Below are positions 1 through 16,669 of a stretch of DNA of 64,000 bases, one piece after another. A model generated the notes under the pieces. That model made no database searches, was not told where the DNA came from, and saw only the letters and a program-made list of their open reading frames with translations. The stretch is taken from NCBI GenBank assembly GCA_963827475.1, contig CAWHAZ010000001.1:1-64000 (forward strand), in the 5' to 3' direction. The position numbers and the translations under genes were made by a program. The stretch comes from an uncultured Chloroflexia bacterium (GTDB lineage Bacteria > Chloroflexota > Limnocylindria > QHBO01). Each line of letters starts with the position of its first letter. The stretch's first letter is position 1.

Positions 1-647
1 CCGTGAGCCGGACGGCGACGGCGGTCAGCAACTTCGGCTCGGCGACCTCCAGCTCTGGCTCGATCCCGTTCAGCCTGCCGCCCGGCAGCAACGCGGTCGT
101 GGTCATGGTCAGCGTCTCGTCGAGCTCGTTCACGACGACCTCGGTGACCTGGAAGCCGGACCCGGCCAACCCTGGCGCCGACCAGGCGCTGACCTTCGTC
201 GGCCGCCAGACGGCGCCCGGCGGCGGCGCGGTCGAGATCTGGGCGCTTCTCAACCCAAGCCCTGGCGTGTCCGGGTTCCGCGCTGACCCACACCCTGAGC
301 GGCAGCGTGAAGCGGGTCATGGGCGTCCACGCCCTGTCCGGAGTGGCGACGATCGGGACCCCGGTCGGGGCCGGGGCCAACGCGACCACGCTCGGGGTCA
401 CCGTGCCCTCGGTCACCGGCGGCCTCGTCCTCGACGTCCTCTACGGCCAGAACAGCACGACCGGCTACACCGCCGGCAGCCGGCCAGACCGAGCGCTGGG
501 ACACGAACACCACCGGCGGCCTGAACAACCTCCGCGGCGCCGGATCGGAGGAGGCCGGCGCCGCCATCGGTGTCGATGACCTGGACGGCGAACGCGAAGA
601 CCAAGATGGCGCTGCTCGGGGTGAGCTTCAACCCGGTCGCGCCCTAG
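1..647 (+). CDS. 3' part of a Ser/Thr/Gly-rich beta-strand extracellular protein (partial, about 2 frameshifts)
   Basis: ORFs 3..524 and 307..579 plus a third frame join into ...VEIWALLNPSPG...VMGVHALSGV...GQTERWDTNTT...SMTWTANAKTKMALLGVSFNPVAP*; its TAG overlaps the stop of the convergent gene (ctag 644-647). Confidence 0.55.
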
Positions 648-14870: not shown

Positions 14871-15267
14871 TCAGGCGGACTCTTCGGTCGGCTCCTTCAT
14901 GAAGTACTCGAGGTAGTCCGAGCAGCGGCCGTCATCGGTGAGGGTCATGCACCCAGATGTTGTGGTAGACCCGGGCCGGCCCACGGGCGGTGGCGCGGTA
15001 GCGGGTCTCGCAGCGGGCCACGGCGACGTCGCCCTCGACGGCGATCGGCTCGCATTCCAGGGTCCAGTCGCCCGGATCGTCGGGCTGCTCGAGCCAGGCT
15101 TCGACGATCTCGTCGAGTCCATCGGCCCCGTCGGCGGGCTCCTCCCACGGATGCCAGCGGTAGACCGCGTCCTCCGTGAACAGGCCCCTGATCAGGTCCG
15201 GTTCGTTCGTCCGCCACGCTTGCTCGTACCGATCGAGCCAGTCTGTGACCGCGGCTCGGGTGGTCAT
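14871..15267 (-). CDS. SnoaL/NTF2-like protein (frameshift ~14945)
   Basis: WLDRYEQAW...LFTEDAVY...YHNIW / DDGRCSDYLEYF. Confidence 0.85.
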
Positions 15268-15286
15268 GGGAACAGTATGAACCCGA

Positions 15287-15362
15287 CTGTCCACATGTGG
15301 ACAACGTGTGGATTGCCTCGCAATCAACCGAGAAAGTGGTGGATAACCCCTATTGTGGGGAT
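15287..15362. promoter_or_regulatory. Cluster of five DnaA-box-like 9-mers
   Basis: CTGTCCACA 15287, TGTGGACAA 15296, TGTGGATTG 15307, GGTGGATAA 15338 and TGTGGGGAT 15354, compared with TT(A/G)TCCACA. Confidence 0.8.
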
Positions 15363-15387
15363 GTTAGGGGCAGCCTATGATTCGTCT

Positions 15388-15497
15388 CGTCCCGAAGGGG
15401 CAGCACGATCCGGGTCTGAGATTGCATCAAGGTCCCGGTGACGACTCCGGAGATTGCATCAAAGGGTCGGGTGCCGTTCCTTCGGGACGTTTCTTTG
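15388..15497 (+). ncRNA. Putative novel small RNA: three-way junction with two identical GAGAUUGCAUCAA loops
   Basis: TATGAT -10 at 15376-15381; closing stem CGTCCCGAAGG/CCTTCGGGACG; two inner hairpins; G-U pairs work only on +; TTTCTTT tail. Confidence 0.72.
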
Positions 15498-16004
15498 TGT
15501 CCGGATTTCCAGAGCCTCCACCTGGCCCGGATCCGAGAGCACCGCCACCGTCGCGTAGCCCTCCCCGTCCAGCTGCCGCAGCGACGCCCGCAGGTTCCGA
15601 TCCTGGCGTCGAACGGCGCCCGCTGGCACGCGCCGGTGCTCCCTCCCGGCGTTCCGCGCCAGGCTGACCTCGAGCGGCAGGGCCAGGACGATGGCCACCA
15701 CCGGACGACCATGGCGAGCGGCGACCGCCAGCAGCGACCGGCGGGCCCAGGCCTGGACGTTCGTCGCGTCCACCACCGTCAGCCGGCCGGCGGCGAGACG
15801 GCGGTCGAGTTCCGCGTGGAGCCGGGCGAAGGCCTCATCGGTGGCGGACTGGTCGGTCGGGTCGCCGGAGACCGCCTCACGGTAGGCATCCGACGAGAGG
15901 ATCTCCGCAGGCTCGAAGTGCCGGGCGGCGAGCGTCGACTTGCCACTGCCGGCGACACCGATGAGCAGGACGAGGGCGTCGCCGGGGACGTCGAGGGCGG
16001 TCAC
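15459..16004 (-). CDS. AAA_33 / polynucleotide-kinase-like P-loop protein
   Basis: GVAGSGKST, LSSD, VVDATN; GTGA-coupled to SRAP. Confidence 0.88.
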   Translation of the reverse strand: MTALDVPGDALVLLIGVAGSGKSTLAARHFEPAEILSSDAYREAVSGDPTDQSATDEAFARLHAELDRRLAAGRLTVVDATNVQAWARRSLLAVAARHGRPVVAIVLALPLEVSLARNAGREHRRVPAGAVRRQDRNLRASLRQLDGEGYATVAVLSDPGQVEALEIRTQRNVPKERHPTL

Positions 16005-16669
16005 CCGGCCCGTTCCAGCAGCTCCGCTCCCTCGTTGCGGACGTTGTTCACGGCCGACGAGACGGGGTAGGCATCGAGCTCCTCGGCGGGGAACGGGAAC
16101 AAGAGGGTGCGCAGGTCGGCGAGGGCGGTCTGGCCCGACAGCCACGTGTCCCAGCTGTCCGGATCCAGGATGACCGGCATCCGGTTGTGGATCGGGGAGA
16201 CCAGCGCGTTGGGGATCGTGGTCAGGATCGAACAGGTGTAGACCCGCTCCCCGGTCTCCGAGTCCCGCCACACGGCCCACACCCCGGCCAGGGCCAGCGG
16301 GTCACCATCCAGCCGCCGAATGGCAAACGGCTCACGCCGGCCGTCGACCCGATGCCACTCGTAGAACGCGGCCGCCGGGATGATGAGCCGCCGCTTGGCG
16401 AAGGACGTCCGGAAGGCCGGCGTCGTCTCGACCGTCTCCGCTCGGGCGTTGATCAGCCGGGCCGCGCCCTTGCGGTCGTCGGCGTACCACGGTACGAGGC
16501 CCCAGCGGAACGGCTCGATGAGCCGCTCCCCGTGGTGCTCGACCACGCCCGCCACCTCGTCGGTGGGCGCCACGTTGAAACGCTGTCCGGGGAGGTCCAC
16601 CGTCGGCCGGGCTCGGAAGATGCGGGCCAGCTCCTCGCTGGAGTGCGGCTGGGCGAAGCGGCCGCACAC
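16001..16669 (-). CDS. SOS response-associated peptidase (SRAP/YedK/HMCES family)
   Basis: N-terminal MCGRF, FNVAPT, INARAET, FYEW, HNRMPVIL. Confidence 0.95.
   Translation of the reverse strand: MCGRFAQPHSSEELARIFRARPTVDLPGQRFNVAPTDEVAGVVEHHGERLIEPFRWGLVPWYADDRKGAARLINARAETVETTPAFRTSFAKRRLIIPAAAFYEWHRVDGRREPFAIRRLDGDPLALAGVWAVWRDSETGERVYTCSILTTIPNALVSPIHNRMPVILDPDSWDTWLSGQTALADLRTLLFPFPAEELDAYPVSSAVNNVRNEGAELLERAG

What the first reader, a model, noticed from the sequence alone, without database searches (positions are those of the whole stretch)
15376..15497. Candidate novel small RNA with two identical 13-nt loops (GAGAUUGCAUCAA)
Seen in sequence: a TATGAT -10 box (15376-81) sits 6 nt before a closing stem. 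CGTCCCGAAGGGGCAGCAC (15388-406) pairs with GTGCCGTTCCTTCGGGACG (15471-89), followed by TTTCTTT. Inside are two hairpins with different stems (CCGGG/CCCGG and CGACTC/GGGTCG) that carry the same loop 13-mer at 15418-30 and 15450-62. The G-U pairs work only on the + strand. Divergent stems with conserved loops is the pattern of protein-sponge RNAs (CsrB/RsmZ) and multi-seed sRNAs (6C, AbcR). I do not recognise it as SRP, 6S, tmRNA, tRNA or a riboswitch. Inference: an independently transcribed ~105-nt RNA that binds a protein dimer or pairs with mRNAs carrying UUGAUGCAAUCUC, which contains an AUG.
Basis: partly seen in the sequence, partly recalled or inferred. Interest (0 to 1): 0.88.

Follow-up and report, generated by a model that had tools for sequence, protein, structure and literature searches.

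The report
Small RNA family with DnaA-box promoters
This is a real, previously undescribed small RNA gene of soil Chloroflexota (class Limnocylindria), one of four copies in this genome, and every copy sits behind an array of binding sites for the replication initiator DnaA, which suggests a link between chromosome replication and RNA-based gene control.

Summary
Window 15389-15497 (+) encodes a ~109-nt RNA with a 13+3 bp closing helix, a U-run, and two inner hairpins that each show GAGAUUGCAUCAA. No Rfam 15 family matches.

It belongs to a conserved multi-copy family:
- Four paralogs lie in this genome.
- The model matches 50 of 50 sampled genomes of the same family and 38 of 44 of a sister family.
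- A third family carries a ~177-nt variant.
- Outside the class, only weak hairpin-like hits appear.
- Record titles place it in Chloroflexota, Ca. Limnocylindria.

Covariation supports the fold and the + strand: 14 of 21 pairs change on both sides, and 0 of 500 shuffles reach the observed score. Most copies have one motif loop, so the duplicated loop is a genus-level elaboration. Soil metatranscriptome contigs hold the element.

The new point is the promoter. Every copy has a TTG -35 and a TATsmT -10, preceded by three or four 9-mers (TGTGGAyAA-like) at about -93, -82 and -51. The same 9-mers are 25-fold enriched in the dnaA-dnaN spacer of 26 related genomes. They are very probably DnaA boxes.

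The RNA's target is unknown. No CsrA, Hfq or Ro gene was found in this 90%-complete genome, and I found no convincing mRNA target.

The parts
15287..15295 (-). Box 0. An inverted DnaA-box-like 9-mer, read CTGTCCACA on + and TGTGGACAG on -.
   Evidence: PWM hit. An inverted box at about -103 is seen in some copies only: 5 of 51 short copies at -104/-103 and several.
15296..15304 (+). Box 1, TGTGGACAA, at -93 from the RNA 5' end.
   Evidence: It is one of only 8 perfect TGTGGAYAA sites in the 1.92-Mb genome. The position is conserved in 60 aligned upstream regions and in the named MAG set.
15307..15315 (+). Box 2, TGTGGATTG, at -82 and 11 nt after box 1.
   Evidence: This is the most frequent box position (33 of 51 short copies start exactly at -82).
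15338..15346 (+). Box 3, GGTGGATAA, at -51. It is preceded by conserved GAAAGT and lies 6 nt upstream of the -35.
   Evidence: (CGGGGATAA 21 times, GGTGGATAA 14 times).
15353..15358 (+). -35 element TTGTGG. Only TTG is conserved.
   Evidence: TTG is conserved in the 60 upstream regions. It matches TTGACA at only 3 of 6 positions, so the consensus scanner reports no promoter. Sister-family copies have TTGACN.
15376..15381 (+). -10 element TATGAT, with a 17-nt spacer to the -35 and 7 nt to the G at 15389.
   Evidence: TAT..T is conserved at this fixed distance.
15389..15497 (+). The small RNA, long form with two motif loops, about 109 nt.
   Evidence: Model R1 scores 64.7 bits, E 1e-13. It is conserved in all 17 other genomes of the genus that were searched. 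Soil metatranscriptome contigs cover 15403-15497 (depth 271) and 15339-15504.
15389..15405 (+). 5' arm of the closing helix: P1 at 15389-15401 and P1b at 15403-15405.
   Evidence: 98.5% of cells pair in helix 1, and 6 of its 13 pairs change on both sides.
15410..15438 (+). Hairpin 1, with the loop GAGAUUGCAUCAA at 15418-15430.
   Evidence: Stem pairs covary (GC 14 and CG 8 at one pair).
15442..15469 (+). Hairpin 2, with the loop GAGAUUGCAUCAA at 15450-15462.
   Evidence: One pair shows A-U, G-U and G-C within the genus. In most other genera this hairpin carries an unrelated loop.
15472..15488 (+). 3' arm of the closing helix.
15490..15496 (+). U-rich tail TTTCTTT. Together with the closing helix it forms the likely intrinsic terminator.
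   Evidence: One search finds a terminator-like site on + at 15475-15489 plus a T-run. The contig in run X13 ends at 15497 (contigs cannot prove an RNA end).

Best explanation
Window 15389-15497 (+) is a gene for a stable, trans-acting small RNA. It is one of four paralogs in this genome and belongs to an undescribed family found across the class Ca. Limnocylindria (Chloroflexota).

Shown here:
- The RNA starts directly with a 13-16 bp helix formed by its 5' and 3' ends. With the following U-run, this helix also serves as the terminator.
- The helix encloses one to four hairpins. At least one displays the invariant sequence GAGAU-NN-CAUCAA.
- Each gene has its own promoter.
- Three or four 9-mers of the type TGTGGAyAA sit at fixed positions upstream (-93, -82, -51, and sometimes an inverted one near -103).
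- The same 9-mers cluster in the dnaA-dnaN spacer, which looks like the replication origin.

Inferred:
- The 9-mers are DnaA boxes, and DnaA controls transcription of the RNA. Activation is most likely, because box 3 abuts a weak -35 (TTG only).
- The RNA level therefore reports the state of the replication initiator.
- The displayed loop is the working part. It acts on other molecules without Hfq. It either pairs over short stretches with mRNAs, as the loops of actinobacterial 6C RNA do, or it binds a protein.
- The second identical loop in this genus doubles the valency.
For: Family and conservation:
- BLAST finds the element in 36 of 36 other genomes of the family.
- Model R1 matches 50 of 50 family genomes, 38 of 44 of sister family f3 and 2 of 49 of f2.
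- f2 genomes G047 and G059 carry a ~177-nt variant with two motif loops.
- This genome has four copies, in unrelated contexts next to metK, upp, an F420H2-quinone-reductase-like gene and SnoaL/AAA_33.

Structure and strand.

Promoter array:
- 60 distinct upstream regions align without gaps over about 95 nt.
- In named MAG loci, 50 of 51 short copies and 21 of 31 sister-family copies have at least 2 boxes in the 130 nt upstream. All 82 have at least 1, at -93/-82/-51. Background is 0.088 per 130 nt.

Identity of the boxes:
- A matrix built from the sRNA boxes hits 109 times (10.5 per kb) in the 400 nt after the dnaA stop of 26 genomes, against 33 hits (0.41 per kb) elsewhere in those loci. Every locus has at least 2.
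- That spacer has abutting boxes followed by an AT-rich stretch before dnaN.
- TGTGGATAA is the reverse complement of the E. coli consensus TTWTNCACA (passages of PMC12371093).
- In this genome the two densest box clusters are two of the sRNA promoters.
- 3 of the 8 perfect TGTGGAYAA sites lie 81-93 nt upstream of sRNA copies.

Expression: RNA-library contigs from three studies hold the element. One 118-nt contig at depth 271 covers 15403-15497 only.

Chaperones: no Hfq, CsrA or Ro/TROVE gene was found.
Against: - No experiment and no strand-specific read data exist. Contigs cannot show strand, ends or level, and RNA libraries can hold DNA.
- One RNA-library contig (X7, 15339-15504) begins 50 nt upstream of the proposed start. 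Contigs in X1 and X3 run into the flanking genes.
- The consensus promoter scan finds no promoter in the window copy.
- DnaA binding is inferred from sequence likeness only. Another factor with a similar site is possible. Box 3 is most often CGGGGATAA, which departs from the consensus at two positions.
- No target was found. There is no extended complementary site in the genome. Duplex scans give only unremarkable hits. No conserved site lies near dnaA or dnaN in 26 loci.
- The two freely varying bases in the middle of the loop fit a structured protein-binding motif (GAU/AUC mini-helix flanked by G.A and A.A) at least as well as a contiguous seed.
- The matrix was trained on family f1 copies, so only the sister-family set and the dnaA spacers are independent tests.
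Confidence: 0.6

Rival explanations
1. The RNA part is the same, but the loop is a protein-binding site. The RNA would be a decoy or scaffold for an unidentified RNA-binding protein. The two-loop and four-hairpin forms would bind two copies or a dimer.
For: - The invariant flanks GAGAU and CAUCAA surround two free bases.
- RNAalifold pairs GAU with AUC inside the loop in all copies. That leaves G.A and A.A opposite each other, a shape typical of protein-recognised helices (my inference).
- No extended mRNA complement exists.
- The closing-helix sequence is itself nearly invariant, beyond what pairing alone needs.
Against: - No candidate protein is known. CsrA, Hfq and Ro were not found.
- The GAU/AUC pairs never vary, so they say nothing about pairing.
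- Loop variants specific to each paralog persist across genera (GAGAUCAC.., GAGAUGAC..). That is what distinct mRNA targets would give.
Confidence: 0.25
2. The locus works mainly as DNA, as a DnaA-titrating or DnaA-modulating site like datA or DARS of E. coli. Transcription through or beside it would only tune DnaA occupancy, and the RNA product itself would be unimportant.
For: - These loci are the densest box clusters outside the origin in this genome.
- There are 2-5 loci per genome.
- The best-scoring copy lies 212-262 kb from dnaA in 6 of 6 genomes where both are on one contig.
Against: - The transcribed part is more conserved than the boxes.
- It shows compensatory changes that keep an RNA fold.
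- It keeps an invariant loop across three families.
- It appears in RNA libraries.
- A pure titration site needs none of this.
Confidence: 0.1
3. The upstream 9-mers are sites for another transcription factor, for example a response regulator that binds direct repeats 11 bp apart. They would not be DnaA sites, and the RNA would have no link to replication.
For: - The 11-bp spacing of boxes 1 and 2 and the 31-bp distance to box 3 place them on one face of the helix, as for OmpR/PhoB-type regulators (my knowledge).
- Box 3 is often CGGGGATAA.
Against: - The same matrix is 25-fold enriched exactly in the dnaA-dnaN spacer of 26 of 26 genomes.
- There the boxes occur in both orientations, next to an AT-rich stretch.
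- The core matches the DnaA consensus.
Confidence: 0.12
4. The element is only a terminator or repeat for the convergent downstream gene, or a cis-antisense RNA against the 3' end of the AAA_33 kinase gene.
For: - Downstream genes are convergent at all four copies.
- The AAA_33 reading frame ends inside loop 2.
Against: - The U-run is on the + side only.
- The conserved promoter faces the other way.
- The neighbouring genes differ between paralogs, and in two genus members also at this locus.
- The G-U pairs fit only the + strand.
Confidence: 0.03

Closest known systems
6C RNA (B11) of Actinobacteria, Rfam RF01066
   Same: A small, highly structured RNA of a high-GC bacterium. Several hairpins display the same conserved loop sequence. 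It acts without Hfq or ProQ through its loops, and its targets include replication genes such as dnaB (abstract of PMC6486639).
   Different: The 6C loops are C-rich and pair with G-rich sites, whereas here the loop is GAGAU-NN-CAUCAA. There is no Rfam match. It is in a different phylum, has multiple copies per genome, and has a DnaA-box promoter. No target is known.
CcnA of Caulobacter crescentus
   Same: A non-coding RNA whose transcription is tied to a master cell-cycle or replication regulator. CcnA lies at the origin of replication and is presumably activated by CtrA (abstract of PMC8959179).
   Different: The regulator here would be DnaA, not CtrA. The genes are not at the origin. There are four dispersed paralogs. 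There is no sequence or structure likeness. CcnA's targets (ctrA, gcrA) are known, and here none is.
EcpR1 of Sinorhizobium meliloti
   Same: A trans-acting sRNA that connects to replication initiation and the cell cycle (search listing and start of the abstract of PMC4414408; dnaA as a target is recalled).
   Different: EcpR1 is stress-induced and acts on dnaA mRNA. Here DnaA would act on the sRNA promoter, and no complementary site near dnaA or dnaN was found.
DnaA as transcription factor, and non-origin DnaA-box clusters (E. coli datA, DARS, dnaA promoter; B. subtilis box clusters)
   Same: Arrays of consensus-like 9-mers outside the origin, in promoter regions, in either orientation (consensus TTWTNCACA and the datA/DARS motifs appear in passages of PMC12371093; the rest is recalled).
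   Different: The known cases control protein-coding genes or act as DNA only. My searches turned up no sRNA gene family with a fixed DnaA-box array.
CsrB/RsmZ protein sponges
   Same: Repeated hairpins showing one conserved loop motif.
   Different: The loops have no conserved GGA. No CsrA gene was found. Most copies have one loop only.
Y RNA / YrlA
   Same: The 5' and 3' ends form a long conserved helix. The start GUCCCGAAGG recalls the GGUCCGAAGG of vertebrate Y RNAs (recalled, not tested).
   Different: No Ro/TROVE gene was found. No Rfam Y_RNA or YrlA match appeared at E up to 10. The helix here is perfect, without the bulge that Ro binds (recalled).

Membership tests
Any Rfam 15 family (SRP, 6S, tmRNA, riboswitches, 6C, CsrB/Rsm, Y RNA, Chloroflexi-1 and others) | A match to the family covariance model at or above its gathering score. 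| tested here: not met
   - 0 matches in the whole window at gathering thresholds.
- At E up to 10 in 15200-15650, only MIR393 (18.6 against 60 bits, minus strand) and a 17-nt piece of Acido-Lenti-1 (10.9 against 37 bits) appeared.
- The paralogs and the f2 variant gave only a weak snoRNA match (19.9 against 40 bits) that lies away from the RNA.
CsrB/RsmZ-type sponge | Multiple loops carrying GGA (A(N)GGA), and a CsrA/RsmA protein in the genome. | tested here: not met
   The bases before the loop vary (CGGAGAU, CAGAGAU, CACGAGAU, CCGCGAU). PF02599 was not found in the 90%-complete genome.
6C RNA | Two hairpins with C-rich loops (CCCC), and actinobacterial distribution. | tested here: not met
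   The loop is GAGAU-NN-CAUCAA. There is no RF01066 match. The host is Chloroflexota.
Y RNA / YrlA | A Ro (TROVE) protein partner, usually encoded nearby, and a bulged Ro-binding helix. | tested here: not met
   PF05731 was not found. There is no Rfam match. The closing helix has no bulge.
Hfq-dependent sRNA | Hfq present, and a terminator with a long U tail plus A/U-rich single strands. | tested here: not met
   PF17209 was not found. The tail is interrupted (UUUCUUUG, UUUCGUUG).
Independent bacterial sRNA gene (generic) | Its own promoter, its own terminator, intergenic position, conserved structure, and a detectable transcript. | tested here: inconclusive
   - Conserved -35 and -10 elements at a fixed distance, and a U-run.
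- Covariation.
- Unrelated neighbours.
- Present in RNA-library contigs of three studies. Strand and ends are not shown, and the consensus scanner calls no promoter at this copy.
DnaA-regulated promoter | DnaA boxes (TTWTNCACA-like) in or next to the promoter. | tested here: met
   Three or four boxes lie at fixed positions. In the named MAG set, 82 of 82 copies have at least 1 hit and 71 of 82 have at least 2. The same matrix is 25-fold enriched in the dnaA-dnaN spacer.
DnaA-regulated promoter | DnaA protein binds, and it changes transcription. | not testable with these tools
   This needs EMSA or footprinting and in-vitro transcription or a reporter.

The most novel reading that the evidence does not exclude
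The RNA family is the post-transcriptional arm of the DnaA regulon, or even a direct feedback regulator of replication initiation, in a whole class of slow-growing soil bacteria. DnaA would switch on four dispersed sRNA genes. Their shared loop would then act on cell-cycle or nucleotide-supply mRNAs, or on a replication protein. That would give an RNA-based way of coupling initiator status to the rest of the cell that has not been described in any bacterium.
Probability: 0.15. Interest if true: 0.85.

Novelty: new variant of a known kind. Interest (0 to 1): 0.64.

Why it matters
DnaA is known as the replication initiator and as a transcription factor for a modest set of protein-coding genes. 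A conserved, multi-copy small RNA whose every promoter carries a phased DnaA-box array would add a riboregulatory layer to that regulon.

- It would give a concrete, testable handle on cell-cycle control in Limnocylindria, an abundant soil lineage without cultured members.
- The promoter fragment, the DnaA protein and the ~65-110-nt RNA are all small enough to synthesise and test in vitro.
- It supplies a new structured RNA family for Rfam, with three size classes: about 65, 83-110 and 177 nt.
- It supplies a working description of the origin region and DnaA-box type of this class.

Tried and rejected
- Known RNA family: Rfam at gathering and at permissive thresholds gave nothing credible.
- Extended mRNA target: the full complement of the loop, with up to 1 mismatch, occurs only as the antisense of the sRNA genes. 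Six sites have 2 mismatches and none lies at an obvious gene start.
- Genome-wide RNAduplex scan and a scan of 4,479 crude SD-preceded starts with three loop variants. Several hits cover start codons (GAUG..AUCUC), but many of the frames look spurious and none was checked in relatives. I draw nothing from them.
- Feedback on dnaA or dnaN: the best duplex sites in 26 dnaA loci are scattered, with no conserved position.
- Likeness between the loop and the AT-rich part of the origin. It is seen in this genus only (..ATGCTTCAAGG..). Other genera have GTATTCTTCTCT. I take it as chance.
- Mobile element: no match in phage or plasmid collections.
- Coding: the frame 15377-15667 (+) starts inside the -10 box and is not conserved. 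I did not pursue it.
- Weak model hits in another Chloroflexota family (f11, 5 of 9 genomes, 28-32 bits, 36-64 nt) look like plain GC hairpins. I did not fetch them, so this is a guess.
- Parts of the 1-kb stretch without cover in runs X7 and X13 are not used as evidence.
- Literature: searches found no paper on a DnaA-box-driven sRNA or on non-coding RNAs of Limnocylindria. One search was badly posed and returned generic sRNA papers. PMC10532879 (passages) was irrelevant. Supplementary files were not consulted.
This is the same report with that field added, one spelling fixed and one membership row tidied.

Full report
**Observation.** TATGAT lies at 15376-15381. A G at 15389 opens GUCCCGAAGGGGC, which pairs with GUUCCUUCGGGAC at 15476-15488, and TTTCTTT follows. 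Inside are two hairpins, each with GAGAUUGCAUCAA, at 15418-15430 and 15450-15462. These are the only two occurrences in the 64-kb window. The count alone is weak, because 7 of 100 shuffles give two matches at up to 2 mismatches. Single-sequence folding keeps the closing stem but pairs the interior differently. The reverse strand folds with a similar z-score. The case therefore rests on comparison with relatives.

**Not a known family.** Rfam 15 gives no match at gathering thresholds in the whole window. At E up to 10 there are only chance-level hits. The paralogs and the longer variant give the same negative result.

**A conserved multi-copy family.**
- BLAST of 15270-15500 against 60 relatives matched all 36 other genomes of the same family (f1), often at 2-5 places per genome.
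- I collected 62 copies. Of these, 29 real copies are short (61-78 nt) with one hairpin. The long ones are about 100-106 nt (108-116 with the 9-nt tail I added) and have two hairpins.
- A covariance model of the short form (R1, from 27 sequences) finds four copies in this genome: C5:253790-253862 (+), C5:344609-344680 (-), C7:33458-33533 (+), and the window copy, which is the only long one.
- Across 150 genomes of the class it matches f1 50 of 50, f3 38 of 44, f2 2 of 49, f4 0 of 6 and f5 0 of 1.
- The f3 copies are 82-89 nt, with the same closing arms and the loop GCGAUCGCAUCAA but quite different inner stems.
- Two f2 genomes (G047, G059) that BLAST had touched carry a ~177-nt form. It has the same arms and four hairpins, two with the loops GAGAUUCCAUCAA and GAGAUAGCAUCAA.
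- In 150 genomes spread over the phylum, only one other family gives hits. They are weak and short, at 28-32 bits and 36-64 nt.
113 of these carry Chloroflexota, Chloroflexia, Limnocylindria, Limnocylindrales or Anaerolineaceae labels. Six carry other labels (Steroidobacteraceae 2, Verrucomicrobiia 2, Zixiibacteriota 1, Gaiellaceae 1) and one carries none. I take the odd labels as binning or labelling noise but did not test that.
- Phage and plasmid collections hold nothing similar.

**Structure and strand.**
- On 84 model matches from 100 named loci (78 distinct rows), 93.3% of cells form standard pairs.
- 14 of 21 pairs show changes on both sides, in 193 cells.
- None of 500 shuffles reach the observed values, and sliding the partner by 1-3 columns drops pairing to 38-63%. 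The alignment was fitted to the model, which favours the structure. However, the f3 group has wholly different inner-stem sequences that still pair.
- RNAalifold on MAFFT alignments, which are not fitted, gives the same closing helix for the short form. For 25 long copies it gives a closing helix plus two separate hairpins.
- Two closing-stem pairs are G-U in most copies, so they exist only in the + sense. Model scores on the minus strand are far lower (64.7 against 23.0 bits here).
- The invariant loop core is GAGAU-NN-CAUCAA. The two middle bases differ between paralogs, and these differences persist across genera.

**The promoter and the boxes.** Sixty distinct upstream regions align without gaps for about 95 nt.
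- The conserved elements are TTG at -36, TAT..T at -13 and GAAAGT.
- There are three 9-mers at -93, -82 and -51. In some copies an inverted one lies near -103.
- In the window they are CTGTCCACA (15287-15295, inverted), TGTGGACAA (15296-15304), TGTGGATTG (15307-15315) and GGTGGATAA (15338-15346).
- The -35 is only TTGTGG, and the simple consensus scanner therefore reports no promoter here.

A position matrix from the 180 boxes was then tested on other sets.
- Named MAG loci: 51 of 51 short copies have at least one hit in the 130 nt upstream and 50 of 51 have at least two.
- Sister-family copies, which took no part in training: 31 of 31 have at least one hit and 21 of 31 have at least two.
- The hits fall at the same three positions, against a background of 0.088 hits per 130 nt.
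- Loci around dnaA from 26 family genomes: 109 hits in the 400 nt after the dnaA stop (10.5 per kb, at least 2 in every locus), against 33 in the remaining ~3.1 kb of each locus (0.41 per kb).

That spacer holds two abutting boxes, a short GC-rich repeat and an AT-rich stretch just before dnaN. This is what a bacterial origin looks like (my knowledge). TGTGGATAA is the reverse complement of the E. coli consensus TTWTNCACA (passages of PMC12371093). The C variant TGTGGACAA is the form I recall from high-GC Actinobacteria.

Genome-wide in this organism:
- The matrix gives 921 hits (0.48 per kb).
- The two densest clusters are the promoters of the window copy (4 boxes) and the C7 copy (3 boxes).
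- Three of the eight perfect TGTGGAYAA sites lie 81-93 nt upstream of sRNA copies. By my own arithmetic from base composition, about six such sites would be expected by chance in the whole genome.

I conclude that the boxes are very probably DnaA boxes. Whether DnaA activates, represses or is merely titrated is inference. A box abutting a weak -35 favours activation.

**Expression.** Fourteen of 20 listed public runs that hold part of a 1-kb stretch around the element are on record as RNA. I laid four runs.
- In one soil metatranscriptome (X13), a 118-nt contig at depth 271 covers 15403-15497. Adapter letters abut 15403.
- In a second study (X7), a 165-nt contig covers 15339-15504.
- In two rhizosphere runs of a third study, contigs also cover the flanking genes.
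- The contigs carry the base variants of genus relatives.

Contigs show presence in RNA libraries. They do not show strand, ends or level. The X7 contig begins 50 nt upstream of the proposed start.

**Function.** The four copies sit in unrelated neighbourhoods, with convergent downstream genes. A cis role is therefore unlikely. No Hfq, CsrA or Ro gene was found in this 90%-complete genome. No extended complement of the loop exists outside the sRNA genes. Duplex scans gave nothing I trust, and there is no conserved site near dnaA or dnaN.

Two readings of the loop remain:
- Short, chaperone-free pairing with mRNAs, as for the loops of 6C RNA (abstract of PMC6486639).
- A structured protein-binding motif, in which GAU pairs with AUC and G.A and A.A flank it.

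The nearest functional parallel for a regulator-driven cell-cycle RNA is CcnA of Caulobacter (abstract of PMC8959179).

**Novelty and verdict.** My searches found no description of this RNA, of non-coding RNAs in Limnocylindria, or of an sRNA family with a DnaA-box promoter. Supplements were not seen, and subscription journals are not covered.
- The element is real and conserved.
- It is a new RNA family.
- Its fixed association with DnaA boxes is a new variant of how sRNA genes are wired.
- The emphasis on two identical loops and on Csr-type sponges does not.

Claims that include unpublished genomes are the tallies. These genomes are G016, G021, G031, G110, G117, G134 and G141. The alignments, model, matrix and spacer counts exclude them.

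Noticed in passing
window 15459-16280 (-): The reading frame of an AAA_33-domain kinase-like gene (Pfam E 7.7e-30) runs tail-to-tail into the sRNA. Its stop codon lies inside loop 2 (15459-15461), so about 38 nt of the two genes overlap in antisense. In two genus members (L007, L017) a different sequence follows the sRNA.
   Followed up: partly
window 15311-15325: A perfect palindrome GATTGC-CTC-GCAATC lies between box 2 and box 3. It shares GATTGC with the RNA loop. It is not kept in other genomes of the genus, so it is probably chance.
   Followed up: partly
window 16001-16669 (-): An SRAP (SOS-response-associated peptidase) gene, Pfam E 6.4e-67, lies about 500 nt downstream of the sRNA, next to the AAA_33 gene. 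I did not examine any link to the DnaA-box locus.
   Followed up: no
L072 729-967 (G000:C4, dnaA-dnaN spacer) and L200-L228: The likely replication origin of this family has two abutting boxes (..TCCACACC-GTCCACAC..), then CCTAC, a GAC/GGA-rich repeat, and an AT-rich GTATTCTTCTCT-like stretch just before dnaN. The rpmH-dnaA spacer of this genome shows no boxes.
   Followed up: partly
G000:C5:123746-123775 and G000:C5:56276-56316: Other DnaA-box pairs occur in this genome: TTATCCACA with GGTGGATAA, and TTATCCACG with TGTGGAAAA ahead of a -10-like GATATACT. They may be further DnaA-controlled promoters.
   Followed up: no
L061 181-372 (+) and L040 about 85-255 (-): Family f2 genomes G059 and G047 carry a ~177-nt version of the RNA. 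It has the same end helix and four hairpins, two with the motif loop, and DnaA boxes upstream. Model R1 misses it in genome-wide searches, so the 2 of 49 count for f2 understates its presence.
   Followed up: partly
G062, G022, G061, G063, G090, G030: The best-scoring short copy lies 212-262 kb from dnaA in 6 of 6 genomes where both are on one contig. This could be conserved synteny or a preference for the origin-proximal region.
   Followed up: partly
window 15389-15401 and 15476-15488: Both arms of the closing helix are themselves near-palindromes (CCCGAAGGG; CCUUCGGG with a UUCG core). Each could form its own small hairpin, or two molecules could pair. The terminator scan indeed picked the local 3' hairpin at 15475-15489.
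   Followed up: no
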